Below, one piece after another: positions 25,970 through 64,000 of a stretch of DNA of 64,000 nt. How positions within the stretch are numbered: position 1 is the first letter of the stretch; each line of letters begins with the position of its first letter. The DNA is from a virus. The stretch covers positions 1 through 64,000 of IMG/VR virus record IMGVR_UViG_3300012936_003649, one strand, 5' to 3'. The notes below the pieces were generated by a model that ran no database searches, was not told the DNA's origin, and saw only the letters and a list, made by a program, of their open reading frames with translations. A program made the position numbers and the translations under genes.

Positions 25970-25997
25970 ATTACTATACAATTGGAGAGAAGAGTAA

Positions 25998-26957: not shown

Positions 26958-26960
26958 TAC

Positions 26961-26989
26961 TTGACTTTCTGACAGATTTGTCATATAAT
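26961..26989 (+). promoter_or_regulatory. sigma70 promoter TTGACT-N17-TATAAT with a TGACA-N4-TGTCA inverted repeat in the spacer
   Basis: TTGACT 26961-26966, TATAAT 26984-26989; tgacagatttgtca at 26970-26983; heads the enzyme cluster. Confidence 0.75.
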
Positions 26990-27008
26990 ACTATTATATG
27001 GAGAAATT

Positions 27009-27344
27009 ATGGATCAACGTCTCAAAAAAGCATTAGAACATGCAGACTATGTCTCAACATTCAAAAATCAAAAACGTATACTACAAGAAAAATACACGAA
27101 AGAATCTACAGTATATTATCAAGGCGGACAATTTACTGCAACTAGAGAATTTATTGCAAGTGTTCTAGCAATAAAATGTGATATTTTTGTAGACAATAAT
27201 AATACTCCTATAAAAATTACAAACAAAGAAGCGTTTTACAACGAATTAGTCACAGCATACACAACTGCAAATGAAAATTACTATACAGAGTATCAAAAAA
27301 TAATTGATAGCGAAAGAACTGTGCAAGGAATATTAAATGTCTAA
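27009..27344 (+). CDS. Hypothetical protein (possible fibre assembly/chaperone-like)
   Basis: 111 aa ORF with GGAG RBS; overlaps next gene. Confidence 0.55.
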   Translation: MDQRLKKALEHADYVSTFKNQKRILQEKYTKESTVYYQGGQFTATREFIASVLAIKCDIFVDNNNTPIKITNKEAFYNELVTAYTTANENYYTEYQKIIDSERTVQGILNV

Positions 27345-28125
27345 GGGCATACTTGTACACGCATTCAATAATGAAGAAATAGATTACGTCAAGCAAGCAT
27401 GTATGGTTGCAGAACGTGTAAAAAAGTATCTTGATCTTCCTACAAGTGTTATAACTGATTGTAAAGTGCCAAAAAATGTTTTCGACCATGTAATTGAATT
27501 TGACACTCCGCAAAGATACACTAGAAAGTTGTATAATAACGGAAATCACGGAAAACATTTAACCTTTAAAAATAATGCAAGAGTTTTAAGTTACGATTTA
27601 TCACCGTATAAGCAAACACTAATGATTGATAGTGATATAATCATATGTGATGATGTTTATAAAAACTGTTTTGAACAAGATAATCCTTTATTGATGTATA
27701 AAGATGCATATCATATAGGACAAAATTTAGATTATAGAGAATTTAATAAAATAAGCGATTCAAGTGTAGATTTTTATTGGGCAACTTGTGTATATTTTGT
27801 AAAATGTAAACAAAACAAAATATTTTTTGATTTGCTACAGCATATTGAAGAGCAATGGCGTCATTATAGAATGTTATATCAAATAGTACAGCGAACATAC
27901 CGCAATGACTTTGCTTTTAGTATAGGTGCCCACATTATGAATAATCATTCTAAAGGCAACTTTGTCAATCCTATGCCAGGAAAACTTTTTTACACTATAG
28001 ACAAAGACATTACACACGAAATAAAACAAGATAAACTAACTTTTTTAATTGATAATAATCCAATTGCTACAAAAGGACTTACTGTACATGCTATGAACAA
28101 ATATAGTTTAGAGGAATTACTATGA
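27337..28125 (+). CDS. Nucleotide-diphospho-sugar transferase (GT-A fold, GT8-like)
   Basis: GILVHAFN N-terminal strand, YDLSPYKQTLMIDSD DxD motif, YRNDFAF. Confidence 0.75.
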   Translation: MSKGILVHAFNNEEIDYVKQACMVAERVKKYLDLPTSVITDCKVPKNVFDHVIEFDTPQRYTRKLYNNGNHGKHLTFKNNARVLSYDLSPYKQTLMIDSDIIICDDVYKNCFEQDNPLLMYKDAYHIGQNLDYREFNKISDSSVDFYWATCVYFVKCKQNKIFFDLLQHIEEQWRHYRMLYQIVQRTYRNDFAFSIGAHIMNNHSKGNFVNPMPGKLFYTIDKDITHEIKQDKLTFLIDNNPIATKGLTVHAMNKYSLEELL

Positions 28126-28928
28126 AACAAGGTGTATTAATATTTGCACAAAATAACCAAACAGATGATTATGTAAAACAAGCATACTTGTGTGCAATGA
28201 GTGGTATGAAAAACGGAAATATGCATTTTACACTAGTGACTGACAAAGAAGTTGAGGAAAAAATTGCATTTGTATTTGATAAGGTTATTTTGTTAAAGCA
28301 TGACCAAGCAAAAAACAGCGAATGGAAAATAGAAAATAGATGGAAAGCCTATAATCTTTCTCCATATGACGAAACAATAGTTGTTGACAGTGATGTTTTA
28401 TTTTTAGAAAAAATAAATTGGTCTAAATTTAAGGATCAAGAACTTTACTTTACACAAAATCCAATTACATATAGACAAGAACCTATTAATGACACTTACT
28501 ATAGAAAAGTTTTCTCACAAAATTACTTGATTAATATATATGCAGGATTATATTACTTCAAAAAAACAAAACGTGTAGCAAATTTTTTTGCATTATTGGA
28601 AACTGTCATAGAAAATTGGCAAGATTTTTATGAAATATTTTGTAAAAACCATAAACCAAAACATTGTAGTATTGATGTTTGTGCCGCTATTGTATTAGAA
28701 CTTATGGAATATGATAATTTTCAAGATGTTGACTTGATTGATTTTGTACACATGAAATTACACGCACAAAATTGGGTAGACACAAGTGAACATTGGCAAC
28801 AGAAAGTTGATTGGTATTTTAATGATGGTTTAAAAATTGGTAATCACCAACAACACGGAGTATTTCATTACACTGAAAAAGACTTCTGTGACAAAATACT
28901 AGCAAGGTATGAAAAGTGTACTGGTTAA
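28122..28928 (+). CDS. Nucleotide-diphospho-sugar transferase (GT-A fold, GT8-like), paralog
   Basis: GVLIFAQN, YNLSPYDETIVVDSD DxD motif, FVHMK, FHYTEK. Confidence 0.75.
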   Translation: MKQGVLIFAQNNQTDDYVKQAYLCAMSGMKNGNMHFTLVTDKEVEEKIAFVFDKVILLKHDQAKNSEWKIENRWKAYNLSPYDETIVVDSDVLFLEKINWSKFKDQELYFTQNPITYRQEPINDTYYRKVFSQNYLINIYAGLYYFKKTKRVANFFALLETVIENWQDFYEIFCKNHKPKHCSIDVCAAIVLELMEYDNFQDVDLIDFVHMKLHAQNWVDTSEHWQQKVDWYFNDGLKIGNHQQHGVFHYTEKDFCDKILARYEKCTG

Positions 28929-29443
28929 TATTTGATAAAGATTCTAGTAAAATTATAGGTTTACAAAACTACGCTCCAGATCATCAATATGCTTTGGAAG
29001 TCAACGAAGATTTGTATGTTGATTTTATTGAAAATCCTGATAAAAAAGAAAATTATGTTGTTAAATTTGATTTGGCAAAAAAGAAATATACATTATTAGA
29101 ATATGAACAGCCAAAATTTAATTATGATATAAAAGACATAATTTATCATATTCCTAAAAAGGATAACGCAGATTGTATGATTACAAGAAACACTGAATGG
29201 CGTAATTGGAAATTATACGTCAATGTGAAAGAAAAACTTTTGTTAAATCCTAATCAACTATGCAAGTTTAGCGTAACAAAAGAAAATGATCCTCACTTGC
29301 TTATTAGAACATTTGATGCTACGGTAGAGCAAATAGCAAACGGACACATAGTTCAGTTCGAGTATGATGAAGAAGAAGGTGATGTAAGTATATACACACC
29401 AAAGATATTTAATAGTTACGGATATGTAGATGAAGCAATTTAA
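28916..29443 (+). CDS. Hypothetical protein
   Basis: 175 aa ORF overlapping both neighbours. Confidence 0.6.
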   Translation: MYWLIFDKDSSKIIGLQNYAPDHQYALEVNEDLYVDFIENPDKKENYVVKFDLAKKKYTLLEYEQPKFNYDIKDIIYHIPKKDNADCMITRNTEWRNWKLYVNVKEKLLLNPNQLCKFSVTKENDPHLLIRTFDATVEQIANGHIVQFEYDEEEGDVSIYTPKIFNSYGYVDEAI

Positions 29444-32400
29444 AGTTTTAGATTATGACATAATATATTTGTCGTATGATGAGCCAAATGCAGAAGAAAA
29501 TTACACTAACTTATTAACAAAAGTTCCGTGGGCAAAACGTATTCATGGTGTAGAAGGATCTGATGCCGCACATAAGGCATGTGCAGAAATATCTGATACT
29601 AAAAGATTTATTACTATTGACGGTGACAACCAAATAGATGAACAATTCTTAAATCAAACAATTAACTTTCAAGAAGGAGTAGACCTTTCTAGGCATGTTG
29701 TAAGTTGGACTGCTGATAATATAATTAATGGATTACGGTATGGCAATGGCGGAATAAAATGTTGGGATAGAGAAACAGTCCTAAAAATGAAAACACATGA
29801 AAATGCAGATCCTGATAACATTGCGGCAGGTATTGATTTTTGTTGGGACTTAGAATATATCCAAATTAACAGTTTGATGAGTACAGTTCACAATAATGCT
29901 ACTCCACATCAAGCATGGCGTGCCGGCTTCCGTGAAGGTGTTAAAATGTGTTTAGTTGAAGGTATAAAACCTGCGAAAAAAGAACTTATAGGAAATCATT
30001 GGAAGAATTTAGAAAGACTATATGTTTGGTGTATGGCAGGAGCAGACGTACCTAACGGACTATGGGCAATATACGGAGCCAGAGAAGGCTTACATAAAAC
30101 AATGTGTACAGATTGGGATTATGTAAATGTACGTGATTTTGAATATCTTAATAATTTATGGAAAGAAAAAATACAAACAGAAGATGACTTGTTAGACGCA
30201 TGTAAAGATTATGGTGAACGTATTCTTGCAGAAATAGAATTACCTATTGCTGTAACGCCCTTAGACGCTCAACAAAGCGTTTTCTTTAAGAAAACATATC
30301 GCAACCCACCAAGACCTGAACATCCTTATATACGTACAAATACAACGCAATTTAACACCTTTTCTTCTAACTTTATTCCTACTAAAAAAACAGAATATGA
30401 TATAGTAATGATATCATATGACGAAGCAAATGCCGATGAAAATTTTAACAAATTAAAAACACGTTTTCCAAGAGCCCAACGTATACATGGAGTAAAAGGA
30501 ATACATCAAGCACATATTGCGGCGGCAAATTTATGTTCAACTGAAATGTTTTGGATTGTAGATGGAGATGCTATAATAGATGACAATTTTAATTTTGATT
30601 ATGTCGCTGAAGATAACAGAGCAGTACATGTATGGCGTAGTAAAAATCCTATAAATGATTTAGTGTATGGATATGGCGGAGTAAAATTATTTCCTACACA
30701 AATGACACGTGATATGGATACAAGCCGTCCTGATATGACTACAAGTATCAGTGACAGATTCAAAAAGATGGAAAAAATATCTTGCATCACAGGATTTAAT
30801 ACAAGTGAATTTAGTACTTGGCGTAGTGCATTTAGAGAATGTGCTAAATTAGCAAGTAAAGTTATTGACAGACAAAAGGAGGACGAAACAAATGAAAGAC
30901 TCAAAACTTGGACAACCGTGGGACACGATAGACCATTTGGGGAATATGCTTTGGCAGGCGCTACCGCTGGTATGGAGTTTGGCCTTTCTAGGGGGTCTGA
31001 TCTTCGGCTGATAAATGATTTTAATTGGTTATATGAACAGTTTACTGAAACTACAGATACAACAGAAGAATGGCAACATATGTATGGCGATAAAACAAAC
31101 ACGCCTGTTTCTGAACCAGTTGATATAGAACCAGTAGAAATACAAGCAGATACCGAATGGAAACAAACAGTACCTTTCAAAGAGGATGAACCACTTCCTC
31201 CTCGTGATAATTTTATTGTAGATTTACTAGATAGATTTGAAATACTTTATGGAGATAAGGTTACTAATCTTAGACGATTTTATAATGACGGACACATGTT
31301 AGATATATTACGTATAATTGGTAATGAAGATTTACGTAAATTTGTAGAAGAAAGAAACTATCATAGTTTATTTAGATACCTAGAAGATAAAGGTATTGAA
31401 GATATTGAAGATATACGGAAAATGTATATTGAAAAAAATGTTCATAGTTTGTTTAGACTACTTGGTGAAGATCATGACGAACTACGCAAAGTTGTTACTG
31501 AAGATAATGTCCATAGTTTATTTAGACTGGTTGGTGATGAACATGAAGATTTACGTAAAACAGTAGTTGAAGAAAATTTACATAGCCTGTTTAGATTGCT
31601 TGGAGACAAACATGAAGATCTAAGACAAGTTGTAGTACAAGAAAATATAGCACATCTATTTGATATGTTAGGTCCTGACTATGAAGATTTACGCAAAGCA
31701 ATATTTGATAAAAATATCTACAGTCTGTTTAGAGTACTAGGACCAAATCATGATAACATGCGTTCAGCAATGTTAGATAAAAATTTACACGGATTGTTTA
31801 GGGTGTTAGGTAATGAATATGAAGATTTACGTAAAGCAACATTAGAAAAAAACTTCCATGCGTTATTTAGAGTATTAGGTGATGAATACGAAGATTTACG
31901 TAAAGCAGTTACAGAAAAAAATGTTCATAGTCTATTTAGGCTTATAGATAATAGTGATACTACAGAAGATTTAAGGAAAGCATTAGTTGAATCTAATGAA
32001 ATGAGTCTGTTTAGATTAATAGAAGACAAAGACACTTTAGTAGAAGATATTAAGAAAGCAGGACTATTTAAAAATATTTGGAGTATAAAAAGATTAGAGC
32101 CTAGTGTCACTGACGAAGTTAATCTTACTATGGATAATAACAGGCATGCTTTATGGCGTGTGTTGGAAAAACATACAGGTAGTTTATATGTTAAACCATT
32201 AGAAATACTTGATAAGCAAAACATTAATTATGATAAAGATGTTATGAGTCGTGGACAATTAAAAAGTAAAAAATGGTTAGTTGAAGAAGTTAAAAAAGTT
32301 TGTCCTGATTTAGGAACTGTATTTTTATGTGCAGGCTGGTATAGTAGTGTTGTGCCTATGTTGCAGGAAGCCAAAATAGATTTTGAAAAAATAAGAAGTT

Positions 32401-32813
32401 TTGATATCGATCCTGAGGCATGGAAAATAGCAGAAGTATTCAATTCAGATTTAGTTAGTGATGCATGGAAATTTAAAGCAACAACACAAGATATAATGGA
32501 TATAAATTATATTGAACACAGTTATACAACTGAAAGGCTTGACGGCACAACTGCTCCTTTGACAGAAATGCCACACACTATTATCAACACAAGTTGTGAA
32601 CATATTGATAATTTTTCTAAATGGTATGATTTATTACCAGAAGGCAGATTAATAATATTACAAAGCAACAACTATTTTAGCATTGAAGAACATGTAAATT
32701 GTTCTAATAGTTTACAAGAGTTTAGTACAAGTGCACCTATGCAAAAAGTTTTATATGAAGGTGAACTTGACTTAGGTCAATACACGAGGTATATGAAAAT
32801 TGGACGTAAGTAA
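29430..32813 (+). CDS. Fusion: two tandem GT-A-like domains + ~12 helical 23-aa repeats + class I SAM methyltransferase-like domain
   Basis: Duplicate SYDE...RIHGV.G...AH...(I/V)DGD...GxGG(I/V)K...WRxxFRE domains; repeats EDLRKxxxExNxHSLFRLLG; C-terminal LCAGWY...RSFDID...IINTSCEH. Confidence 0.7.
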   Translation: MKQFKVLDYDIIYLSYDEPNAEENYTNLLTKVPWAKRIHGVEGSDAAHKACAEISDTKRFITIDGDNQIDEQFLNQTINFQEGVDLSRHVVSWTADNIINGLRYGNGGIKCWDRETVLKMKTHENADPDNIAAGIDFCWDLEYIQINSLMSTVHNNATPHQAWRAGFREGVKMCLVEGIKPAKKELIGNHWKNLERLYVWCMAGADVPNGLWAIYGAREGLHKTMCTDWDYVNVRDFEYLNNLWKEKIQTEDDLLDACKDYGERILAEIELPIAVTPLDAQQSVFFKKTYRNPPRPEHPYIRTNTTQFNTFSSNFIPTKKTEYDIVMISYDEANADENFNKLKTRFPRAQRIHGVKGIHQAHIAAANLCSTEMFWIVDGDAIIDDNFNFDYVAEDNRAVHVWRSKNPINDLVYGYGGVKLFPTQMTRDMDTSRPDMTTSISDRFKKMEKISCITGFNTSEFSTWRSAFRECAKLASKVIDRQKEDETNERLKTWTTVGHDRPFGEYALAGATAGMEFGLSRGSDLRLINDFNWLYEQFTETTDTTEEWQHMYGDKTNTPVSEPVDIEPVEIQADTEWKQTVPFKEDEPLPPRDNFIVDLLDRFEILYGDKVTNLRRFYNDGHMLDILRIIGNEDLRKFVEERNYHSLFRYLEDKGIEDIEDIRKMYIEKNVHSLFRLLGEDHDELRKVVTEDNVHSLFRLVGDEHEDLRKTVVEENLHSLFRLLGDKHEDLRQVVVQENIAHLFDMLGPDYEDLRKAIFDKNIYSLFRVLGPNHDNMRSAMLDKNLHGLFRVLGNEYEDLRKATLEKNFHALFRVLGDEYEDLRKAVTEKNVHSLFRLIDNSDTTEDLRKALVESNEMSLFRLIEDKDTLVEDIKKAGLFKNIWSIKRLEPSVTDEVNLTMDNNRHALWRVLEKHTGSLYVKPLEILDKQNINYDKDVMSRGQLKSKKWLVEEVKKVCPDLGTVFLCAGWYSSVVPMLQEAKIDFEKIRSFDIDPEAWKIAEVFNSDLVSDAWKFKATTQDIMDINYIEHSYTTERLDGTTAPLTEMPHTIINTSCEHIDNFSKWYDLLPEGRLIILQSNNYFSIEEHVNCSNSLQEFSTSAPMQKVLYEGELDLGQYTRYMKIGRK
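31326..32170 (+). repeat. In-frame ~69-nt degenerate tandem repeat (23-aa unit, ~12 copies)
   Basis: Recurrent gaagatttacgtaaa...catagtttatttaga; consensus EDLRKAVxEKNxHSLFRLLGDEH. Confidence 0.9.
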
Positions 32814-33024
32814 ATTAACACTTAGAGAATTACAAACTGAAAGTGCTAGAGCCTTAAGTACTATGGAAGCAACTAATAATAACATTTATAAGTTCAACAA
32901 GCAAGCACATCACAATAGCCAAAATTGGTATGTGGCTGTGATTGAGTGGTATGTAAATACATATGGAGGACTTCCAAGCCAAGTAGGCCCAGGGAAAGAT
33001 GTAAAATTAGTATACGATGTATAG
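32800..33024 (+). CDS. Small hypothetical protein (74 aa)
   Basis: TTG start after GAGG; fills the gap and overlaps both neighbours. Confidence 0.6.
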   Translation: MDVSKLTLRELQTESARALSTMEATNNNIYKFNKQAHHNSQNWYVAVIEWYVNTYGGLPSQVGPGKDVKLVYDV

Positions 33025-34099
33025 ATACGAAAATATTAAGGAAGTGCATTTAGAAGTTACACAAAGGTGCCAAGCGGCATGTCCTATGTGTGATCGTAAT
33101 ATGAACGGTGGTGCTGATAATCCTCATATTACAAATGCTGAACTAAGTTTAGAAGATGCAAAACAAATGTTCAAACCGGAGTTTATTCAGCAGTTAAATG
33201 TTATGTATATGTGCGGCAACCTAGGAGATCCTATTGTTGCAAAAGATACATTAGAAATATTTCAATACTTTAGAGAACACAATGCTAATATGTGGTTAAG
33301 TATGAATACAAATGCAGGTGCAAAAGATATTTACTGGTGGGCAAAACTTGCAGAAGTAATAGGACGCAGAGGTGCTGTAATTTTTAGTGTAGACGGATTG
33401 CGTGACACTAATCATTTGTATAGGCAAAACGTTGTATGGGATAATGTAGAACGTAATATGCAAGCATTTATTGATGCTGGCGGCAGAGCCCGTTGGGACT
33501 TTTTAATATTTCAACACAACGAACATCAAGTAGAAGAAGCAGAAGCACTTGCAAATCAATGGGGTTGTGAAAAATTTATTAAGAAAAAATCAGGTAGATT
33601 CATTACAAGTGATATTAAACCAAAGTATGAACACCAAGCAGTAAATCGAAAAGGTGCAGAAACACAAAAATTGGCTCCGCCTAAAGAAGAAAAGAATAAG
33701 AATTTAGCATTACTAAAACAAAAAGAAATAGAAAAATCATACGGAAGTATGAAAGAATATTTAGACAAATGCAACATAACTTGTAAGGTTGCTAAACAAG
33801 GAAGTATTTTTGTTACAGCCGAAGGATTGTTAATGCCTTGTTGTTGGACCGCTGGACGTATGTACAAATGGTGGCATGAAGATCCTAAAGTAGAACAAAT
33901 ATGGGATCATATAGATAGTGCTGGTGGAAAAAAAGGCATCAGTCTAATTGACAATGATCTTAAAACAGTAGTCAATGGTAGGCTAATACATAGTATTTCA
34001 TCAAGTTGGAACAAGTCTAGTATTGCAGATGGTAAACTTGGAGTTTGTGCTCAAAAGTGTGGAAGCGAGTTTGATCCTTATGCAGAGCAGTTCAAGTAA
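33017..34099 (+). CDS. Radical SAM enzyme with C-terminal SPASM/twitch-like domain
   Basis: CQAACPMC; GNLGDP; SVDG; C-terminal CKVAKQGSIFVTAEGLLMPCCW...CAQKC. Confidence 0.9.
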   Translation: MYRYENIKEVHLEVTQRCQAACPMCDRNMNGGADNPHITNAELSLEDAKQMFKPEFIQQLNVMYMCGNLGDPIVAKDTLEIFQYFREHNANMWLSMNTNAGAKDIYWWAKLAEVIGRRGAVIFSVDGLRDTNHLYRQNVVWDNVERNMQAFIDAGGRARWDFLIFQHNEHQVEEAEALANQWGCEKFIKKKSGRFITSDIKPKYEHQAVNRKGAETQKLAPPKEEKNKNLALLKQKEIEKSYGSMKEYLDKCNITCKVAKQGSIFVTAEGLLMPCCWTAGRMYKWWHEDPKVEQIWDHIDSAGGKKGISLIDNDLKTVVNGRLIHSISSSWNKSSIADGKLGVCAQKCGSEFDPYAEQFK

Positions 34100-35233
34100 T
34101 TATTTACTGCTATAATAACAATCTGCATTAAATCCAATAAATTTATCAATACTTTCGTATTTTACTTTTCTTTTGTAATCAGGACGAGGATTTACAGCCA
34201 TACCAAATTCAGATGCCATTATACTATGTAACGACACAGCCATTTGATGCATATGTGGTCTAGCATCCTCAGAGTCTAGACTTGCATTGTTACCTCTACT
34301 TTTAAGATTTTTAAAAGTTGAATAATCTTGATTGCCTTCTAAAGTTCTAAGTGCAACTAATTTTAGTTTCGGACCTAAATATTCATCTTTAAACAAATCT
34401 ACACCAAATGATCTAGCCATGATAGCATATCCAAACATACTATTTGCACCTAATGTATGATACCAATAACCCCTGTTACCTCTAAAACTATTGTTATTAA
34501 TGTATCCGTCTTTGGTAATTGTTTTAAGCATACTATTTCTACGTATTTTAATTTCCTTATATGCTAAATTTTTATCATTTGTCCAATGAGCATATGCAAG
34601 AACACCCATTCCACCATCACCCCATTCGTAAAAACCATTGTCGTGTAATGATGCTGAAGCATATGCTTTTACAAATTTATTGTATGCTTTCTTAAAGTAT
34701 TTTGAAAGTATTTGTTGATCGTTTTCAGTCATATGTTCTTTCAAAATTATAGCACTATACATCATAGCCATAAATGTAAAACTTGTGTGTTGCGGAGTAT
34801 GATTATGACACGTAGCATTTTTATCTCCATCCCCCCAACATCCACTATTACCAAACTTTCTAGTAGATAAAAGTGCTTCTGCTTTTGCAATATAAACAAG
34901 GGTAGCAACGACATCTTGTGCTAGACGTTTATTATTTGTTGCCTCGGCTTTATAAGTTTGTCTTAATAGTTCTGACCATCTATCTGATAATCCATCATGA
35001 TTAACAGTTAAACTAGTGTCATTTTCGAATAACTTGTTAGCATTAATTTTAGCAAGGTCTTTCGGAGGCAAACCTTCTGTTTTTGCTACTACACATTGTT
35101 TGCCTTTAATTTGATCTACAAGCAAATCATCCGGAAAATTTATTGGATTTTTGGCATCTAAAGAACCGCTATGAGCGGTCATACACCCAGTAAGTAGTAC
35201 TGTTGATAGTATTAAAGGTACAATTTTTTTCAT
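34100..35233 (-). CDS. Alginate-lyase-like (alpha/alpha-toroid polysaccharide lyase) lipoprotein
   Basis: Start re-called at ATG 35233: MKKIVPLILSTVLLTGC lipobox; DGYINNNSFRGNRGYWYHTLG resembles the RG..a..Yh catalytic region of PF05426-type lyases. Confidence 0.6.
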   Translation of the reverse strand: MKKIVPLILSTVLLTGCMTAHSGSLDAKNPINFPDDLLVDQIKGKQCVVAKTEGLPPKDLAKINANKLFENDTSLTVNHDGLSDRWSELLRQTYKAEATNNKRLAQDVVATLVYIAKAEALLSTRKFGNSGCWGDGDKNATCHNHTPQHTSFTFMAMMYSAIILKEHMTENDQQILSKYFKKAYNKFVKAYASASLHDNGFYEWGDGGMGVLAYAHWTNDKNLAYKEIKIRRNSMLKTITKDGYINNNSFRGNRGYWYHTLGANSMFGYAIMARSFGVDLFKDEYLGPKLKLVALRTLEGNQDYSTFKNLKSRGNNASLDSEDARPHMHQMAVSLHSIMASEFGMAVNPRPDYKRKVKYESIDKFIGFNADCYYSSK

Positions 35234-35244
35234 AAATTTATCCA

Positions 35245-35252
35245 TATAAATA
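35245..35252 (+). promoter_or_regulatory. T4-type late promoter TATAAATA
   Basis: Exact consensus in the divergent intergenic region upstream of 35330. Confidence 0.45.
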
Positions 35253-35268
35253 ATTAAAACTATAGTTA

Positions 35269-35296
35269 ATTGTAACATATAACAGCCAGAAGTCAA
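35269..35296 (-). promoter_or_regulatory. sigma70-like promoter TTGACT-N16-TACAAT (extended -10 TG) for the lyase gene
   Basis: Minus strand TTGACTtctggctgttatatgtTACAAT. Confidence 0.5.
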
Positions 35297-35318
35297 GGAA
35301 ATTGGTAAAATCCACGAA

Positions 35319-35324
35319 TAAGTA
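35319..35324 (+). promoter_or_regulatory. Late-like box TAAGTA 5 nt before ATG
   Basis: gaaTAAGTAatagtATG; no SD between box and ATG. Confidence 0.5.
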
Positions 35325-35329
35325 ATAGT

Positions 35330-54690: not shown

Positions 54691-54715
54691 CAGTTTATTA
54701 CAAAGGTGCTATAAT
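54687..54715 (+). promoter_or_regulatory. Perfect sigma70 promoter TTGACA-N17-TATAAT with extended -10; leaderless start
   Basis: TTGACA 54687-54692, TGcTATAAT ending 54715, ATG at 54721. Confidence 0.8.
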
Positions 54716-54720
54716 ACGTT

Positions 54721-55851
54721 ATGACTGAAGATTTGAAATGGAGTAACTATGACTTCACAAAAATACCTTTTGATGACATTGTTAGTGTGGGTCAACGCAC
54801 TTCGCTTTATCGCGATTTATTTACTGTATCCTGGTTACTCGGAAGGTTCTGTAACTACAGATGTTCATACTGCTGGCCCTACGCAAGATCAGATCGTAAA
54901 GATCACCGTCCTACCGAGTTATGCTTGCGTACAGTGGATGAGATTAAACGTCAAGCCAGAGACAACGGTTTCAACAGTTTCCACTTCTCCTTGTCAGGAG
55001 GAGAGCCTACATTCCATCCTGGATACTTGGACATTCTAAAACATTTAGCAGATGATGCACCTAACACAAATTATACAAGTATTCATATGACTAGTAATTG
55101 TAGCAGACCTATGAAATGGTTTGAAACTTATGTTGAATATGCAAAACCATTCCACCGTGCCAGCATTACTGCTAGTTTACATGTTGAACATGTAAATACA
55201 AAAGAGAAGATGCAAGATTTTGCAGATAAATTAAATTTATGTCAGGAGTATGATGTTCAAGTTACAATCAATCAAGTTATGGTTCCAGAACATTTCGAAA
55301 GAGACTGGGAAAATGCTCTCTTCTTTCATGAACAAGGAATCAACGTTACCCTTAAACCTCAGTCGGATCCGACTGCGTCCAGAGTGGTTGATGGATACAA
55401 AGACGCAGACCTCAAAAGACTCTGGAACGGTATGCCACAAAGGGCGTACACAGAAAGTAAAAGGGTCTGGGCAGACAGACCTAAAGCGTCATTCGAAATA
55501 CCTCATGGAGTAGAAGGCAAGAACGATGCAAGTGTGCCTTGGCATATGCAGGTAGAATTAAAAGATTCTAAAGGCAAAAAATGGTATATGGACCAAGCAG
55601 AACGTTTTAATGCCTTTAATTTCAATAATTTCGAAGGATGGCGGTGTAACGCCGGTTTTAGCGGACTAATAATACGCGAGCCAGACGGTAGCGTAAAAAG
55701 GAGTTATTCATGCCACGATGCACCACTAGGCAATATAGAAACAGGATTCGAACTGTTTAAGACACCTAAAACATGCATCACCAAAAGTTGTGTAAGTTCT
55801 GCTGATTCAAAGATACCAAAGCGTAAAACTACTTCACTTCAAAGCAGTTAA
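54721..55851 (+). CDS. Radical SAM enzyme (MoaA-like core plus C-terminal Cys-rich domain)
   Basis: SWLLGRFCNYRCSYC, SGGEP, TSN, SLH; C-terminal WRCNAG...SC...TC...SC. Confidence 0.9.
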   Translation: MTEDLKWSNYDFTKIPFDDIVSVGQRTSLYRDLFTVSWLLGRFCNYRCSYCWPYARSDRKDHRPTELCLRTVDEIKRQARDNGFNSFHFSLSGGEPTFHPGYLDILKHLADDAPNTNYTSIHMTSNCSRPMKWFETYVEYAKPFHRASITASLHVEHVNTKEKMQDFADKLNLCQEYDVQVTINQVMVPEHFERDWENALFFHEQGINVTLKPQSDPTASRVVDGYKDADLKRLWNGMPQRAYTESKRVWADRPKASFEIPHGVEGKNDASVPWHMQVELKDSKGKKWYMDQAERFNAFNFNNFEGWRCNAGFSGLIIREPDGSVKRSYSCHDAPLGNIETGFELFKTPKTCITKSCVSSADSKIPKRKTTSLQSS

Positions 55852-56617
55852 TTATTCTATTACCTTTACTGAATGTTGGAAATGTAATTTCCTTTGGTAA
55901 ATGATGAACGTTGCCCTGCGGGTCTTTTGCTGTTCCAGAAGAAATGTCAACTACATTATAATCTTGGTCAGTCCATCCACCTGTTGATTGTCCTATCATA
56001 ACTTCATGCTCATCTGATTCGTTATGGTTGCGTCCTTGCTGTGGATATCCAATGCCTATGCCGTATTCTAATTGTTTTGTTCCGTTACTAATATCTTCTG
56101 CTATGTTGAGCCTTTTAAACCAATACTCTTTATCAGGCGGCGCACTCATATTTTTATTGAATCCAGTAACATATCCCATTTCAGCGGCAGACCGTGCAAC
56201 TAGACCCATAGCCATTCCTATCGAAGCCAAACAGTTATCACGTCTATTAGCGTGTTCAGGTGATCTTCCTGTTCCATCAGCATTGAAGTTACGCATTGTG
56301 TCAGGAAACTTGCTAACAAAACACATGTAAAAGTTAGCACCCATTTGCGGATTCTTCCAACAAGAAGGTGGCAATGTAGGATCACCAGGATGTGGTGTAG
56401 CAGTAAAGCCCCAAGTATAATCTAACATCTCTTTAATTACTTCTGGTTTACGAATAAAATATACATCATAATATGCTTCATGCTGTTTGCTTGGAGCGTT
56501 TTGAGCAATCCATAACCAATGATTGATATGCTCTTGTGGTATTTCTTTTGATAAATCCCAATTTCTTTGGCATCGTTGGATTGTTTTGATGTAATCTTTT
56601 TCTTTGTCCATATCCAT
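55829..56617 (-). CDS. Nitroreductase-superfamily flavoprotein
   Basis: QRCQRNWD, NAPSKQ, SIGMAMGLVARSAAEMGYVTGF, GIGIGYP. Confidence 0.75.
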   Translation of the reverse strand: MDMDKEKDYIKTIQRCQRNWDLSKEIPQEHINHWLWIAQNAPSKQHEAYYDVYFIRKPEVIKEMLDYTWGFTATPHPGDPTLPPSCWKNPQMGANFYMCFVSKFPDTMRNFNADGTGRSPEHANRRDNCLASIGMAMGLVARSAAEMGYVTGFNKNMSAPPDKEYWFKRLNIAEDISNGTKQLEYGIGIGYPQQGRNHNESDEHEVMIGQSTGGWTDQDYNVVDISSGTAKDPQGNVHHLPKEITFPTFSKGNRIINCFEVK

Positions 56618-56622
56618 ATAAC

Positions 56623-56667
56623 TACTTATCCACCTTTATAGTTGCCAAATGCTATAACAGATAATTA
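56623..56667. promoter_or_regulatory. Divergent late-like boxes, each 5 nt from an ATG
   Basis: Minus: gaTAAGTAgttatATG (56628-56623, ATG 56617); plus: gaTAATTActaatATG (56662-56667, ATG 56673). Confidence 0.5.
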
Positions 56668-56672
56668 CTAAT

Positions 56673-62067: not shown

Positions 62068-63088
62068 CGATGATATAAAATTAGATTTTTCTGACGTGCT
62101 AATAGAACCAATAGAAAGTTCTAAACCTCTCACACGTAAAAATGTTGATATAGAAATAGATTGGTTAGATACCAAAGCAACTCCTGTAATTGTTTCAAAC
62201 ATGCTTAGTACAGGAACTTATAAAATTGCAAATATACTTACACCATTGCGTATTTTTACTTTTTTACACAAAGAATATACTGCTGAACAACATATAAAAG
62301 AATTACAAAAAATGTCTGACAGAAGATTTATTGCAATTACAAGCGGTGTACAATCATGGGATAAAGATAAAACAATTGAAGTAGTAAGTAAGTTTCCTGA
62401 CATAGGTATTATTAATGTTGATATTGCAAATGTATATGCTAACATGCAAGGAATGATTGATACAATTAAATTATATAGACAAAAATTTCCAAACATACAT
62501 ATAAGTGCTGGCAATGTAGCAACTCCAAATGTTGTATCTAAATTAGTTCAAGCAGGAGCAAACTTTATTAAGGTAGGAGTTGGTAGTGGTGCGGCTTGCA
62601 GAACACGCTCAGAAGTAGGAGTAGGTATACCTCAACTAAGTGCTATACTAGATTGTTATGAAACTGTTACTAGGAATGGTGCTCATATCATTTCAGATGG
62701 TGGCTGTGTAACTTCTGGAGATGTTTGTAAAGCAATAGGTGCAGGTGCTAAAATGGTTATGATAGCAGGGATGATATCTAAAGCAGAAGAGTGTGATAAT
62801 ATTGTAGAAATTGACGGTAAAAAATATGTTAACTTTTATGGGCTAGGTAGCACAACTATGTATAACCGTACAAATCCAACAGAACAAGAGTATAGACCTA
62901 ACGAAGGTAGAGACTTGTTAATACCCGCAAAAGGGTCTGTTAAAAGCATTTTAAAGCAAATACAAGGGGGTTTAAGGAGTGTATGTACATATGTAGGTGC
63001 AGAGCATATAAACCAATTAAACAGCCGTACACGCTTTGTACGTGTCAATAATCAAATTAATAATAGTTTAGAAAAGTACGAAAAATGA
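62054..63088 (+). CDS. guaC: GMP reductase (IMPDH/GMPR family)
   Basis: KLDFSDVLI, VDIAN, AGNVAT, KVGVGSGAACRTR catalytic Cys loop, IISDGG, FYGLGS, GGLRSVCTYVGA; no CBS insert. Confidence 0.85.
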   Translation: MKKINDDIKLDFSDVLIEPIESSKPLTRKNVDIEIDWLDTKATPVIVSNMLSTGTYKIANILTPLRIFTFLHKEYTAEQHIKELQKMSDRRFIAITSGVQSWDKDKTIEVVSKFPDIGIINVDIANVYANMQGMIDTIKLYRQKFPNIHISAGNVATPNVVSKLVQAGANFIKVGVGSGAACRTRSEVGVGIPQLSAILDCYETVTRNGAHIISDGGCVTSGDVCKAIGAGAKMVMIAGMISKAEECDNIVEIDGKKYVNFYGLGSTTMYNRTNPTEQEYRPNEGRDLLIPAKGSVKSILKQIQGGLRSVCTYVGAEHINQLNSRTRFVRVNNQINNSLEKYEK

Positions 63089-63795
63089 TAAGTTTTGACA
63101 AAATATTAAATGAAGGAGTAACCATATCTAGTAGTGGTACAACCGGACCTTCAAAAGATATATTTCGTGATCCTGAAAATTTAAAAGAAGCAAATAAGAT
63201 TGCAGTAGATGCACAAAATATATCAAGCACAAGTAAAATACTTACTGTGACTAGAATGACTCACGCTGGAGGATTACTGGCTCAAAGTTTGCCAGCGTAT
63301 AGTGTTGGCGCTGAAGTAACTATTTTAAAAAAATTTAATCCATTTACATTTCTCAAAAATTTTCAACACTACACTCATACTTTTCTAGCACCTGCTCAGA
63401 TGACTGCACTAATGAATACAAAAGGATTTAAAGATTGTGATCTTACAGGTAAAAGAATTTTAGGGGGAAGTGATCCTGTAACTTGGGATATGATCGAAGC
63501 ATTTGTAAACAAAGGTGCTATTGTGCAACCCAATTGGGGAATGAGCGAGATAGGACCAATTACTATTAATATTGAATTTGCTACAATGGAGCAAGTTGAA
63601 TATGTAAAACAAAGATGTCCTGATGGCTACACAATCATGGGTAATAAATATTATTGTGATTGGAAAATAGTTGACCATGAATTATATGTCAAAGGTCCAA
63701 CATGCGTATATGATGATTGGTTTGCTACAGGTGATATAGTAGCACTAGATATGGGTAGGAGAATGTACTACCTAGGAAGAAAGGAAAATATATGA
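63085..63795 (+). CDS. Short AMP-binding (ANL-superfamily) adenylating enzyme
   Basis: SSGTTGPSK P-loop, THAGG, NWGMSE, WFATGDI, LGRK; only 236 aa. Confidence 0.8.
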   Translation: MISFDKILNEGVTISSSGTTGPSKDIFRDPENLKEANKIAVDAQNISSTSKILTVTRMTHAGGLLAQSLPAYSVGAEVTILKKFNPFTFLKNFQHYTHTFLAPAQMTALMNTKGFKDCDLTGKRILGGSDPVTWDMIEAFVNKGAIVQPNWGMSEIGPITINIEFATMEQVEYVKQRCPDGYTIMGNKYYCDWKIVDHELYVKGPTCVYDDWFATGDIVALDMGRRMYYLGRKENI

Positions 63796-64000
63796 GGCCT
63801 TATTTTCAATATGTAGAAGGTATAAATTTTACCCAAGAAACTCGAAAAAAACTTGCAGAAAATATTTTATCGAATGCAGAAGATTATATTAGAAGTGCTA
63901 ATTATAGGCACAACAAATATGGAAAATATGATTGGAATTGGTTCTGTCCTAGAGAACTTATGCCTACTGAACTTATGGACGAAGTAGGAAAACGTTTCAA
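63792..64000 (+). CDS. Partial ORF, probably another 2OG-Fe(II)/cupin-like family member (truncated by window end)
   Basis: ATGA overlap; MRPYFQYVEGINFTQETRKKLAENIL resembles the start of the 58904 protein (MEPYYKLVPYAITEDTKQKIL); open to the end. Confidence 0.5.
   Translation, partial: MRPYFQYVEGINFTQETRKKLAENILSNAEDYIRSANYRHNKYGKYDWNWFCPRELMPTELMDEVGKRF

What the first reader, a model, noticed from the sequence alone, without database searches (positions are those of the whole stretch)
26961..64000. A ~37-kb phage-encoded biosynthetic mega-cluster with 14 radical SAM genes, attached to the tail-fibre module
Seen: straight after the baseplate and fibre genes, about 38 mostly overlapping genes encode almost only tailoring chemistry. 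There are 14 CxxxCxxC radical SAM genes, 4 GT-A domains, 3 nitroreductase-like, 3 SGNH-like, at least 4 2OG-Fe(II) oxygenase-like, a GNAT, a PLP aminotransferase, at least 2 methyltransferase domains, an adenylating enzyme and GMP reductase, and the cluster runs off the window. Known: such enzyme sets build complex glycans, RiPPs and hypermodified nucleotides, but characterised phage pathways use only a few enzymes. Inference: this may be an undescribed viral pathway. I favour heavy decoration of virion proteins with an unusual glycan (GTs lead the operon, SGNH/GNAT/MT would tailor sugars, twitch rSAMs such as BtrN oxidise aminocyclitols). Host-surface remodelling or DNA/RNA hypermodification are alternatives. 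The product cannot be read from sequence.
Basis: partly seen in the sequence, partly recalled or inferred. Interest (0 to 1): 0.93.

Follow-up and report, generated by a model that had tools for sequence, protein, structure and literature searches.

The report
Jumbo-phage radical-SAM sugar-tailoring island
An uncultured marine giant phage carries, right behind its tail-fibre genes, a real 37-kb operon in which 14 of about 40 genes are iron-sulfur "radical SAM" enzymes led by sugar-transferase-like genes; it most likely builds and chemically edits an unusual sugar decoration, but the product and its target are still unknown.

Summary
From 27009 to 64376 (376 bp past the window) lie 38 plus-strand and 2 minus-strand genes. 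Fourteen are radical SAM (rSAM) genes, all with CxxxCxxC and all above Pfam's cut-off. Nine are old paralogues (22-29% identity) of NCBIfam N_Twi_rSAM, a catalogued family with no known reaction.

The lead protein folds as GT-A + GT-A + 23-residue repeats + class I methyltransferase. All enzymes are soluble.

It is not a chimera. An independent marine metagenome contig bridges the fibre-to-cluster junction, and 52 related IMG/VR contigs carry the island, with 8-19 rSAM genes in each of five records searched. dN/dS is 0.04-0.2.

A core (two GT-A genes, the methyltransferase, four rSAMs) is conserved. The other slots vary. The same core sits in chromosomes of about 18% of sampled Bdellovibrionales.

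Relatives' islands add UDP-glucose dehydrogenase, epimerase/dehydratase, DegT, FkbM and carbamoyltransferase genes. No RRE domain and no export machinery was found.

Best reading (about 0.45): a cytoplasmic, rSAM-edited glycan put on a protein, probably virion fibres.

The literature mentions such rSAM cassettes only in passing. This scan has met the same island type before on other DNA (134 notes, at least 121 genomes).

The parts
27009..27344 (+). First gene of the operon (111 aa, no family). A sigma70-like promoter lies at 26961-26989.
   Evidence: A homologue lies at the head of the island in the complete 400-kb relative (L066).
27337..28928 (+). Two paralogous genes (262 and 268 aa), nucleotide-diphospho-sugar-transferase-like. 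This is a lead only.
   Evidence: The two are 27% identical. No Pfam or PHROG match was found. Atlas look-alikes are viral 'nucleotide-diphospho-sugar transferase' clusters, with PF03407 and PF01501 as leads.
28916..29443 (+). 175-aa protein of unknown family.
29430..32813 (+). 1127-aa fusion protein. It holds GT-A-like domain A (residues 1-305), GT-A-like domain A' (320-538), an acidic linker, about 13 helical 23-residue repeats (600-930), and a class I SAM methyltransferase domain (937-1127).
   Evidence: Domain map. Domain A': AF2 pLDDT 90; Foldseek matches to WrtF, PcManGT, ppGalNAcT, SunS and PBCV-1 A64R; VIA Z 11.7; invariant DxD. C-terminal domain: AF2 pLDDT 92.8; NodS at E 2.8e-8, TM 0.63-0.67. 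In relatives and in bacteria the three domains are separate genes.
32800..33024 (+). Missed 74-aa gene encoding a conserved small protein. Its core reads ATNNNI.QFN..A.HNS.NWY..VI.WY...YG.LPS..GPG.
   Evidence: It is conserved at 65-83% identity in 26 related loci and always lies just after the methyltransferase gene. An HMM did not find it in the bacterial loci.
33017..34099 (+). Core radical SAM gene (360 aa, cluster motif at residue 18). It resembles SPASM/twitch-type maturases.
   Evidence: Orthologues at 46-73% identity occur in phage loci. They occur at 42-47% identity in 27 of 151 Bdellovibrionales genomes, next to the 54721 orthologue.
34100..35383 (-). Exported lipoprotein with an alginate-lyase family domain. 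Its real start is probably near 35242.
   Evidence: PF05426 at E 1.6e-7. Signal peptide and LTGC lipobox.
35245..35252 (+). TATAAATA (T4-late-type box), 78 nt upstream of the first N_Twi rSAM gene.
   Evidence: There are only 2 copies in the window, against 14.3 +/- 3.4 expected.
35330..40343 (+). Four N-terminal-twitch radical SAM genes (35330, 36729, 37912, 39033). 35330 is a core gene.
   Evidence: NF033640 scores are 422, 156, 299 and 223 bits against a cut-off of 170. The four twitch Cys, CxxxCxxC and GGE are all invariant. The 35330 orthologue reaches up to 91% identity in phage loci and about 60% in bacteria.
40324..41437 (+). Split enzyme: a 250-aa radical SAM gene plus a 124-aa Cys-rich twitch-like protein. 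Together they match the 54721 architecture.
41427..43308 (+). Cassette of a nitroreductase-like gene plus an N_Twi rSAM gene.
   Evidence: It is a paralogous copy of the cassette at 46872-48732.
43266..45403 (+). A 478-aa unknown protein plus an Asp/Arg-hydroxylase-type Fe/2OG oxygenase.
   Evidence: PF05118 at E 1.9e-10. The Atlas suggests as a lead that the two are fused in some viruses.
45400..46902 (+). B12-binding-type radical SAM gene (500 aa).
   Evidence: PF04055 scores 67.6 bits. PF02310 scores 30.2 bits, just under its cut-off. The best NCBIfam matches (PhpK, ladderane, RiPP C-methyltransferase) are all far below their cut-offs.
46872..48732 (+). Cassette of a nitroreductase-like gene plus the core N_Twi rSAM gene (47566).
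   Evidence: More than 1300 metagenomic relatives were found.
48707..52898 (+). A DUF6071 gene followed by three N_Twi rSAM genes (49419, 50572, 51795).
52886..54690 (+). Two paralogous SGNH-like genes. The call rests on an N-terminal GDS block only.
   Evidence: No Pfam or PHROG match was found.
54687..54715 (+). Perfect TTGACA-17-TATAAT with a TG extension, in the 30-bp gap before 54721.
54721..55851 (+). Core radical SAM gene (376 aa) with a C-terminal Cys-rich twitch-like domain.
   Evidence: Orthologues at 68-91% identity occur in phage loci. Orthologues at 58-69% identity occur in 28 of 151 Bdellovibrionales genomes.
55829..56617 (-). Nitroreductase-family gene on the opposite strand.
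   Evidence: PF00881 at 24.7 bits
56673..64000 (+). Accessory module, absent from the complete 400-kb relative. It runs on to 64376 of the contig, 376 bp past the window's end. It holds a Fe/2OG oxygenase, two unknown genes (one a single-pass membrane protein), a class IV aminotransferase, two cupin-like genes, a SAM methyltransferase, a B12-type rSAM gene, an IMPDH/GMP-reductase family gene, an AMP-binding fragment and a third cupin-like gene (63792-64376, cut by the window's end).

Best explanation
The island is a cytoplasmic pathway that assembles a sugar-based decoration and edits it heavily.

Proposed steps:
1. The GT-A-like transferases at the head of the operon (27337, 28122 and the two domains of the 29430 protein) build a short glycan.
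2. The fused methyltransferase caps or methylates it.
3. The radical SAM enzymes (nine N-terminal-twitch, two B12-type, three others) carry out C-H chemistry on the sugars, such as oxidation, deoxygenation, epimerisation, C-methylation or C-C bond formation.
4. Fe/2OG oxygenases, nitroreductase-like flavoproteins, SGNH-like esterases or acyltransferases, an aminotransferase and an adenylating enzyme add or change substituents.
5. All enzymes are soluble and no lipid-carrier or export genes are present, so the acceptor is most likely a protein in the cytoplasm. Given the position inside the host-recognition module, the phage's own fibre or baseplate proteins are the likeliest acceptor.

Swapping of rSAM cassettes between related phages would vary the coat.

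Shown: gene content, folds, conservation, selection, cassette variability, the bacterial counterpart, and sugar-nucleotide genes in relatives' islands.

Inferred: the sugar nature of the substrate in this phage, every individual reaction, and the acceptor.
For: GT-A fold.
- AF2 model of the second GT-A domain has pLDDT 90.
- Foldseek E 2e-4 to WrtF, PcManGT, ppGalNAc-T, SunS and PBCV-1 A64R.
- VIA Z 11.7 over 135 residues.
- DxD is invariant in 21 sequences.

Methyltransferase fold.
- The C-terminal domain matches class I methyltransferases.
- The best match is the Nod-factor N-methyltransferase NodS.
- The sugar methyltransferases MtmC, RebM and KijD1 are also in the list.

Sugar genes in homologous islands.
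- A UDP-glucose 6-dehydrogenase gene lies between rSAM genes and the GT genes in relative G002.
- A Pfam tally over 120 non-rSAM families from 55 loci gives Epimerase/GDP_Man_Dehyd/RmlD, DegT, UDPG_MGDP_dh, CTP_transf_3 x2, FkbM x3, Carbam_trans and GNAT x2.
- A NodU/TobZ-type carbamoyltransferase sits between core genes in a Bdellovibrionales chromosome.

No sign of the peptide or export routes.
- No PqqD/RRE domain in five phage records, with positive controls.
- Only two proteins have hydrophobic segments.
- No Wzx, Wzy, ABC or phosphoglycosyl-transferase match turned up in the Pfam scans of the cluster.

Context and conservation.
- The island lies directly after the baseplate and fibre genes, on the same strand.
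- It ends at the same downstream gene in relatives.
- Composition is hypervariable around a conserved core.
- dN/dS is 0.04-0.2.
- All nine N_Twi paralogues keep the cluster ligands and GGE.

Precedent. PBCV-1 A064R has the same order of a GT-A-type GT, a second GT and a methyltransferase. It is soluble, expressed early, and builds the capsid glycan (PMC9614988).
Against: Missing sugar genes in this window.
- No classical nucleotide-sugar gene is present: no SDR epimerase/dehydratase, no DegT, no nucleotidyltransferase.
- The aminotransferase is class IV (D-amino-acid or branched-chain type), not DegT.

Weak transferase assignments.
- No Pfam GT family reaches significance for any of the four GT-A-like units.
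- The GT-A fold is shared with nucleotidyltransferases such as IspD (Z 11).

The rSAM family does not point to sugars.
- The solved enzymes closest to the N_Twi profile act on peptides (SkfB), lipids (GDGT-MAS), a sugar nucleoside (BlsE) and nucleotides (viperin, MoaA).

Other points.
- A conserved 74-aa protein next to the core rSAM gene could be a peptide substrate.
- The strongest promoters at the head of the operon and before 54721 are sigma70-like, not late-type. This fits a host-directed early function as well.
- No glycosylated phage protein has been observed.
- CTP_transf_3 genes of two relatives lie far from their islands.
Confidence: 0.45

Rival explanations
1. Radical post-translational modification of a peptide or protein (RiPP-like). 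The rSAM enzymes cross-link, epimerise, methylate or hydroxylate a ribosomal product. The substrate could be the conserved 74-aa protein (32800-33024) or a fibre protein. The Asp/Asn beta-hydroxylase-type oxygenases and B12-rSAM methyltransferases act as in proteusin-type pathways. The GT-A enzymes then glycosylate the peptide, as in glycocins or mycofactocin.
For: - SPASM/twitch rSAMs are the mainstay of RiPP maturation.
- The best PDB sequence match of the N_Twi profile is SkfB (4e-13).
- NCBIfam near-matches include MftC, WgkB, PapB and HxsB/C, all below their cut-offs.
- PF05118 hydroxylases act on proteins in eukaryotes.
- A conserved small ORF lies just before the core rSAM gene 33017 in this window and in several relatives.
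- SunS and ThuS peptide glycosyltransferases are among the fold matches.
Against: - No RRE/PqqD domain in five phage records.
- The N-terminus, where RiPP rSAMs carry the RRE, is a twitch domain here.
- The small protein has no Cys. It is conserved along its whole length rather than split into leader and core.
- The small protein follows the methyltransferase gene rather than the rSAM gene. In L005 and L007 another gene separates it from the 33017 orthologue.
- The small protein is missing from the bacterial loci that hold the same core.
- No protease or exporter gene was found.
- Sugar-nucleotide genes occur in relatives' islands.
Confidence: 0.2
2. Remodelling of the host cell envelope during infection, by changing O-antigen, capsule or lipid A. 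The purpose would be to block superinfection or aid release, as proposed for glycosyltransferases in the pelagimyophage host-recognition cluster.
For: - Sigma70-like consensus promoters stand before the GT genes and before 54721, suggesting early, host-RNA-polymerase transcription.
- An exported polysaccharide-lyase lipoprotein lies inside the island.
- Zaragoza-Solas et al. propose this reading for GTs in similar islands (PMC7029224).
- The bacterial homologues would decorate the cell's own surface.
Against: - No membrane-embedded transferase, flippase, polymerase, ABC exporter or initiating phosphoglycosyl-transferase was found; all enzymes are soluble. The phage would have to feed host export machinery.
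- One T4-late-type box stands before the main rSAM block.
- Early expression is also seen for capsid-glycan GTs of PBCV-1.
Confidence: 0.15
3. Synthesis of a free small molecule, such as a modified nucleoside, cofactor or antibiotic-like compound, that acts inside or outside the infected cell.
For: - The minimal unit in one 3-Mb Bdellovibrionales chromosome is just the rSAM pair 54721+33017, with the other core genes dispersed. This layout is more typical of cofactor pathways.
- rSAMs of this superfamily branch act on GTP, CTP and nucleosides (MoaA, viperin, BlsE).
- The accessory module holds a GMP-reductase family gene, an adenylating fragment and an aminotransferase.
Against: - No exporter or resistance gene was found.
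- The island sits in the structural module and varies like fibre genes.
- Four transferase-like units lead the operon.
Confidence: 0.12
4. Hypermodification of phage DNA or of RNA, in the way of thymidine hypermodification or 7-deazaguanine pathways.
For: - Known phage DNA hypermodification pathways use rSAM, PLP, flavin and GT enzymes. This rests on established knowledge and was not tested here.
- A GMP-reductase family gene is present.
Against: - The Pfam scans of the cluster gave no match to DpdA/TGT, hydroxymethylase, nucleotide kinase or DNA glycosylase families.
- The island is in the fibre module, not with replication genes.
- Homologous core genes occur in bacterial chromosomes beside housekeeping genes.
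Confidence: 0.06

Closest known systems
NCBIfam NF033640, N_Twi_rSAM (twitch domain-containing radical SAM protein)
   Same: Seven of the nine paralogues match the full-length model above its 170-bit cut-off (223-422 bits). All nine have the N-terminal four-Cys twitch domain followed by CxxxCxxC and GGE.
   Different: The family is only a catalogue entry. I found no characterised member and no paper. Two paralogues (36729, 51795) fall below the cut-off. Nine diverged copies in one operon is a lineage-specific expansion.
Host-recognition cluster (HRC) of pelagimyophages and cyanomyophages (Zaragoza-Solas et al. 2020, PMC7029224); T4-like marine viral genome with 12 radical SAM genes (Nishimura et al. 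2017, PMC5332604)
   Same: Both are large hypervariable islands in the structural region, next to a giant protein and the tail fibres. Both hold glycosyltransferases and gain or lose 'radical SAM cassettes' between close relatives.
   Different: Those papers only mention the rSAM genes. Here the phage belongs to a jumbo clade: its baseplate protein is 36% identical to those of Rak2/Atu_ph07/PA5oct-type phages, and a relative has a complete 400-kb genome. rSAM genes make up 45% of the island's bases. A conserved core and a bacterial counterpart are defined. Whether the two kinds of island are homologous was not tested.
PBCV-1 A064R and the virus-encoded capsid or fibril glycosylation machinery of giant viruses (PMC9614988)
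   Same: Both are soluble multidomain proteins with the order GT-A-type glycosyltransferase (DxD), second glycosyltransferase, class I methyltransferase. Both are encoded by a large virus and act in the cytoplasm. A64R domain 1 appears among the fold matches.
   Different: There is no detectable sequence homology. Here a block of 23-residue repeats is inserted. The giant-virus clusters contain no radical SAM enzymes. The host is a bacterium.
Mycobacteriophage virion glycosylation (Freeman et al. 2023, as cited in PMC12619734)
   Same: Phage-encoded glycosyltransferases lie next to structural genes and decorate capsid and tail proteins (cited text).
   Different: Those systems use one to a few GTs and host sugar nucleotides. 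They have no tailoring enzymes and no rSAMs. This comparison rests on the cited summary only.
Multi-rSAM RiPP pathways (proteusins/polytheonamide, mycofactocin, His-Xaa-Ser system)
   Same: Both combine SPASM/twitch and B12-type rSAMs with Fe/2OG hydroxylases and methyltransferases. Mycofactocin adds a GT and an O-methyltransferase (established knowledge; NCBIfam near-matches).
   Different: No family cut-off is reached. No RRE was found. There is no recognisable precursor with leader and core. The rSAM count is also several times higher here, judging from memory of those pathways.

Membership tests
Radical SAM superfamily (PF04055) | CxxxCxxC cluster motif and a Pfam match above the gathering score | tested here: met
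   All 14 ORFs have the motif. All 14 score 29.7-70 bits against the 29.5-bit cut-off.
NF033640 N_Twi_rSAM | Full-length match at or above 170 bits | tested here: met
   Met for 35330, 37912, 39033, 42034, 47566, 49419 and 50572 (223-422 bits). 36729 (156 bits) and 51795 (125 bits) align over the full length but fall below the cut-off.
NF033640 N_Twi_rSAM | N-terminal twitch (single auxiliary 4Fe-4S) domain before the rSAM core | tested here: met
   Four Cys (positions 7, 25, 75, 78 of 47566) are invariant in all nine paralogues. Pfam SPASM matches fall at the N-terminus. The profile's N-terminal 70 positions match the BtrN twitch domain (8e-5). Metal content is not testable here.
Class B (B12-binding) radical SAM methyltransferases | N-terminal cobalamin-binding domain plus rSAM core, with a family model above its cut-off | tested here: inconclusive
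   PF02310 scores 30.2 bits (45400) and 21.9 bits (60586) against a cut-off of 32.1. NCBIfam subfamily scores are 47-98 bits against cut-offs of 360-600.
GT-A glycosyltransferases | GT-A (nucleotide-diphospho-sugar transferase) fold with a DxD motif | tested here: met
   Tested on domain A' of 29430. Foldseek probability is about 1.0 and E 2e-4. VIA Z is 11.7 with rmsd 2.7 over 135 residues. D59 and D61 are invariant. Domain A is 30% identical to A'.
GT-A glycosyltransferases | Membership of a curated GT sequence family, and sugar-transfer activity | tested here: not met
   No Pfam GT family reaches E 0.001 for 27337, 28122 or 29430. The weak matches were Mannosyl_trans3 (E 0.041), DUF6492 (E 0.006) and Glyco_tranf_2_2 (E 0.0026, in the bacterial homologue). 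Nucleotidyltransferases (IspD) match the fold equally well. Activity is not testable here.
Class I SAM-dependent methyltransferases | Rossmann-like methyltransferase fold | tested here: met
   C-terminal domain of 29430: AF2 pLDDT 92.8, and at least 500 PDB methyltransferase chains at E < 1e-3, with NodS best. 59973 matches Methyltransf_25, _31 and _11 above their cut-offs.
RiPP biosynthetic gene cluster | Precursor peptide and a RiPP recognition element (PqqD-like) | tested here: inconclusive
   PF05402 was not found in five phage records, while controls were positive. The only candidate is the conserved 74-aa protein. Divergent RREs can escape Pfam.
Und-P-dependent polysaccharide (O-antigen or capsule) locus | Initiating phosphoglycosyl-transferase, flippase/polymerase or ABC exporter | tested here: not met
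   No such Pfam family was found. Only a lipoprotein and an 85-aa single-pass protein have hydrophobic segments.
Hypervariable host-recognition island of marine myophages (HRC) | Lies in the structural module beside the fibres and a giant protein; gene content varies between close relatives | tested here: met
   Position. A 4953-aa protein lies upstream. Variable slots surround conserved core genes in 52 loci. Homology of the giant protein to VrlC and membership of the pelagimyophage lineage were not tested.

The most novel reading that the evidence does not exclude
The island is a combinatorial radical-chemistry system for glycans, or for a glyco-conjugate on the conserved small protein or on fibres. 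Each N-terminal-twitch rSAM, alone or with a partner gene such as the duplicated nitroreductase-like + rSAM cassette, performs a different C-H functionalisation on a sugar. Aquatic jumbo phages and predatory Bdellovibrionales exchange these cassettes to vary a surface or attachment coat. This would define the first reaction for a large uncharacterised rSAM family. It would also be a new way of diversifying viral surfaces.
Probability: 0.3. Interest if true: 0.92.

Novelty: new variant of a known kind. Interest (0 to 1): 0.8.

Why it matters
Radical SAM enzymes carry out some of the hardest reactions in biology, and most families have no known function. Here one such family (N_Twi_rSAM) is expanded nine-fold in a single phage operon. 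Across 55 related loci, about 47% of plus-strand ORFs of at least 120 aa carry the rSAM motif.

The genes are abundant in the ocean. One core rSAM has more than 1300 relatives, and the unannotated GT-A-like domain has more than 4500 clusters at 90% identity.

If the product decorates virions, phages would, like giant eukaryotic viruses, run their own elaborate glycosylation chemistry. That would bear on host recognition, immune or defence evasion, and marine carbon chemistry.

The shared core in Bdellovibrionales matters for a practical reason. If a cultured strain carries it, the function could be tested genetically even though the phages are uncultured.

Tried and rejected
- **Assembly chimera with a bacterial polysaccharide locus: rejected.**
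  - Composition is uniform.
  - Phage genes flank the island on both sides.
  - A 5.5-kb contig from an independent 2025 marine study bridges 25071-30573 with 4 mismatches.
  - Near-identical DNA occurs in at least four independent studies.
- **Relaxed selection: rejected** (dN/dS 0.04-0.2; dS is saturated, so the ratios are rough).
- **Cultured-phage relatives.**
  - Megablast of 24 kb against 50,697 phage records gave no match.
  - A protein search with 54721 gave no match.
  - N_Twi relatives in cultured phages are only 20-25% identical (KVP40-like Vibrio phages, RsoM2USA). Their neighbourhoods are unannotated.
- **PHROGs.** Ten unannotated cluster proteins gave nothing.
- **Profile searches against PDB sequences.**
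  - The GT-A domain and the methyltransferase domain gave nothing useful.
  - Three further ORFs from relative G002 also gave nothing.
- **Nonulosonic-acid pathway: not established.**
  - There is no NeuB. The one weak NeuB match inside the methyltransferase domain is spurious.
  - The CTP_transf_3 genes of G002 and G003 lie far from their islands.
- **Moraphage lineage (PMC12619734): not relevant.** The paper does not mention rSAM genes.
- **Expression.** No RNA holder was listed for this DNA. Nothing can be said about expression.
- **Tool failures.**
  - The nine-paralogue alignment was too diverged for a genome-contig scan.
  - Relatives cannot be drawn for a virus record.
- **Complex prediction was not used.** I make no binding claim.

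Full report
**What the window is.**
- The window is the first 64 kb of a 78,974-bp linear IMG/VR contig. CheckV estimates 22% completeness, which implies a genome of about 350 kb.
- Composition is uniform at 30-37% G+C, with constant strand skew.
- The first 27 kb encode:
  - a gp25-like baseplate protein;
  - a gp6-like baseplate wedge protein, 36% identical to those of Rak2/Atu_ph07/PA5oct-type jumbo phages;
  - a 4953-aa protein;
  - three fibre proteins with collar or intramolecular-chaperone domains.

**Checking the observation.**
- From 27009 a densely packed plus-strand operon runs to 64376. That is 376 bp past the window, after which a minus-strand block begins.
- The operon holds 37 plus-strand ORFs of at least 80 aa, and 32 of 36 neighbouring pairs overlap.
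- I found one gene that the ORF filter had missed, a 74-aa ORF at 32800-33024.
- Two genes lie on the minus strand.
- Exactly 14 ORFs carry CxxxCxxC. All 14 exceed Pfam's Radical_SAM cut-off. Together they take up 16,980 of 37,368 bp.
- Pfam also confirms:
  - two Asp/Arg-hydroxylase-type oxygenases;
  - nitroreductase family in two genes, with a third as their paralogue;
  - DUF6071;
  - an alginate-lyase family lipoprotein;
  - a class IV aminotransferase;
  - a SAM methyltransferase;
  - an IMPDH/GMP-reductase family protein;
  - an AMP-binding fragment.
- The SGNH-like proteins and the additional 2OG-like proteins rest on motifs only.
- The GNAT is not confirmed.

**The radical SAM genes.**
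- Nine of them are members or near-members of NCBIfam NF033640 (N_Twi_rSAM). Seven score above the 170-bit cut-off and two score 156 and 125 bits.
- The nine are only 22-29% identical to one another.
- All nine nevertheless keep four N-terminal cysteines, the CxxxCxxC motif and GGE. They are old, functional paralogues.
- The N-terminal domain matches the auxiliary-cluster (twitch) domain of BtrN.
- Two further genes are B12-binding-type rSAMs.
- Of the three remaining rSAM genes, 40324 plus the small 41063 form a split version of the 54721 architecture.
- A two-gene cassette, nitroreductase-like plus N_Twi, is duplicated inside the window (41427+42034 and 46872+47566).
- I found no paper on the family.
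- The closest solved enzymes act on peptides, lipids, a sugar nucleoside and nucleotides. The family name therefore does not reveal the substrate.

**The lead genes.**
- Pfam sees no glycosyltransferase in them. I therefore tested the claim by structure.
- The 1127-aa protein (29430) consists of:
  - two homologous domains (30% identity to each other);
  - an acidic linker;
  - about 13 repeats of 23 residues;
  - a C-terminal domain.
- The second domain was modelled with 21 sequences (pLDDT 90).
  - It has the GT-A / nucleotide-diphospho-sugar transferase fold and an invariant DxD.
  - It matches WrtF, PcManGT, ppGalNAc-T, SunS/ThuS and PBCV-1 A64R, and reaches Z 11.7 to B4GALNT1.
  - IspD-type nucleotidyltransferases match nearly as well.
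- The C-terminal domain (pLDDT 92.8) is a class I methyltransferase.
  - Its best match is the Nod-factor methyltransferase NodS.
  - Several sugar methyltransferases are also in the list.
- The paralogues 27337 and 28122 look like nucleotide-diphospho-sugar transferases only to a language-model search.
- The count of 'four GT-A domains' is thus supported by fold for one domain, by homology to that domain for a second, and as a lead for the other two.

**Is it real, and is it co-conserved?**
- A scan of IMG/VR with one core rSAM found 52 related loci.
- Orthologues of five genes recur in most loci at 45-91% identity. These are the 29430 domains, 33017, 35330, 47566 and 54721.
- The slots between them are filled by different rSAM paralogues and other genes.
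- Five related records hold 8-19 rSAM genes each. One of them is a complete 400-kb genome.
- In one relative the island exceeds 50 kb and ends at the same downstream gene as here.
- Over 55 loci, 441 of 946 plus-strand ORFs of at least 120 aa carry the rSAM motif.
- dN/dS against orthologues is 0.04-0.2 for ten genes.
- Near-identical DNA is present in marine metagenomes from at least four independent studies between 2014 and 2025.
- One 5.5-kb contig from such a study bridges the fibre-side genes into the cluster with 4 mismatches.

**A bacterial counterpart.**
- The core is also found at 42-69% identity in MAGs labelled Bdellovibrionales or Bdellovibrionia.
- It lies on contigs of up to 3 Mb, beside rpoD-dnaG, MoxR/DUF58 and SppA.
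- The four such MAGs that were tested lack the phage baseplate gene.
- In a sample of 151 genomes of that order:
  - 28 have the 54721 orthologue;
  - 26 have the 35330 orthologue, all among the 28;
  - 27 have the 33017 orthologue, 26 of them among the 28;
  - 30 have the GT-A domain, 25 of them among the 28.
- The genes are usually clustered. One genome packs at least 10 rSAM genes into 20 kb.
- In one 3-Mb contig they are dispersed, with only the 54721+33017 pair adjacent. This is phyletic coupling of a functional module.
- One bacterial cluster carries a NodU/TobZ-type carbamoyltransferase between core genes.

**What it most likely does.** Several lines point to carbohydrate chemistry.
- The transferase and methyltransferase folds point that way.
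- So does the carbamoyltransferase in the bacterial cluster.
- So does a UDP-glucose 6-dehydrogenase gene sitting between rSAM genes and the GT genes in a relative's island.
- A Pfam tally over 120 non-rSAM island families includes epimerase/dehydratase, DegT, UDP-sugar dehydrogenase, cytidylyltransferase, FkbM methyltransferase, carbamoyltransferase and GNAT.
  - The tally covers same-strand ORFs within 10 kb of a core gene.
  - A few of these ORFs may therefore lie outside an island.
- No PqqD-like RRE is present in five phage records.
- No membrane transferase, flippase, polymerase or exporter was found. All enzymes are soluble.
- A cytoplasmic glycan pathway without export genes, placed in the host-recognition module and varying like fibre genes, fits decoration of a protein. 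The phage's own fibres or baseplate are the most plausible acceptor.
- The closest worked-out analogy is PBCV-1 A064R. It is a soluble, early-expressed protein with a GT-A-type GT, a second GT and a methyltransferase, and it finishes the capsid glycan.
- I put this reading at about 0.45.

**What speaks against it.**
- This window itself has no classical nucleotide-sugar gene.
- Its aminotransferase is class IV.
- The GT-A fold is shared with nucleotidyltransferases.
- The rSAM family has peptide-modifying neighbours.
- The conserved 74-aa protein could be a substrate.
  - Against that, it follows the methyltransferase gene rather than an rSAM gene.
  - It also lacks cysteines and is absent from the bacterial loci.
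- Promoter-like signals are mixed.
  - Perfect or near-perfect sigma70-type sites occupy the rare intergenic gaps before 27009 and 54721.
  - TATAAATA occurs only twice in the window, against 14.3 +/- 3.4 expected.
  - One of those two copies stands before the first N_Twi gene.
- The timing of expression, and hence whether the target is the virion or the host, remains open.

**Novelty.**
- Two papers mention the phenomenon in passing.
  - One reports a T4-like marine viral genome with 12 rSAM genes (PMC5332604).
  - The other reports 'radical SAM cassettes' in the fibre-adjacent hypervariable island of pelagimyophages (PMC7029224).
- Neither paper analyses the genes.
- I found no characterised member of the main enzyme family and no characterised pathway with this make-up.
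- This scan has met the same island type many times on other DNA (134 notes in at least 121 genomes). Earlier follow-ups reached similar readings.
- I re-derived here the family assignment, the core, the Bdellovibrionales link and the small conserved protein.
- I class the finding as a new variant of a known kind, namely virus-encoded glycosylation or host-recognition islands.
- There is a real chance, about 0.3, that the chemistry is of a new kind.

Noticed in passing
window 32800-33024 (+): A 74-aa ORF with a TTG start that was missed by the 80-aa filter. It overlaps both neighbours. It is conserved at 65-83% identity in 26 related phage loci, always just after the methyltransferase gene. 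It has an almost invariant core, no Cys, and is not found in the bacterial loci.
   Followed up: partly
window 25000-25007 and 35245-35252: TATAAATA (T4 late-promoter box) occurs only twice in 64 kb, against 14.3 +/- 3.4 expected. Such depletion suggests the motif is functional and selected against elsewhere.
   Followed up: partly
window 25941-25969, 26961-26989, 54687-54715: The best sigma70-like promoter matches (12/12, 11/12 and 12/12 with TG) fall exactly in the few intergenic gaps. They lie before a fibre-side paralogue, before the first cluster gene, and before the core rSAM gene 54721.
   Followed up: partly
window 34100-35383 (-): An alginate-lyase family protein with a lipoprotein signal peptide (lipobox LTGC). 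The true start is probably near 35242. It is the only exported enzyme in the island.
   Followed up: partly
window 4155-19016 (+): A single 4953-aa ORF between the baseplate wedge gene and the fibre genes. It has CBM_5_12 and FG-GAP matches. It may correspond to the giant VrlC-like protein that borders such islands in pelagimyophages; homology was not tested.
   Followed up: no
window about 4095-4155: The gp6-like baseplate protein ends in a Gly/Ser-rich low-complexity tail (GGGSS repeats followed by GYGY), encoded by GC-rich repeats. This is a possible flexible acceptor segment.
   Followed up: no
L055, L056, L064 (genome contigs): Phage contigs of this clade are binned inside MAGs labelled Arcticimaribacter, Crocinitomicaceae and Dojkabacteria. 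The last also holds the phage baseplate gene. These look like binning errors. The two Flavobacteriia bins may hint at the host.
   Followed up: partly
L057 11656-12540 (-): In one Bdellovibrionia chromosome a transposase-like zinc-finger gene sits between the two halves of the core cluster.
   Followed up: no
L016 1702-1980, L068 4202-4516: A stand-alone 92-104-aa twitch-like Cys-rich ORF lies before the 35330 orthologue in some relatives. Together with 41063 in the window, it shows that auxiliary-cluster domains also occur as separate small genes.
   Followed up: no
window 30624-31287, 33280-33943, 35272-36599: When contigs from four marine metagenomes are laid on the window, depth rises 3- to 10-fold over the conserved core genes. 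Many related phage populations share these segments at 90% identity or more.
   Followed up: no
related loci (pan-island tally): Some relatives' islands or their same-strand flanks hold an MTA/SAH-nucleosidase-type phosphorylase (PNP_UDP_1), a SAM decarboxylase and a redoxin. These could serve SAM or 5'-deoxyadenosine turnover for so many rSAM enzymes.
   Followed up: no
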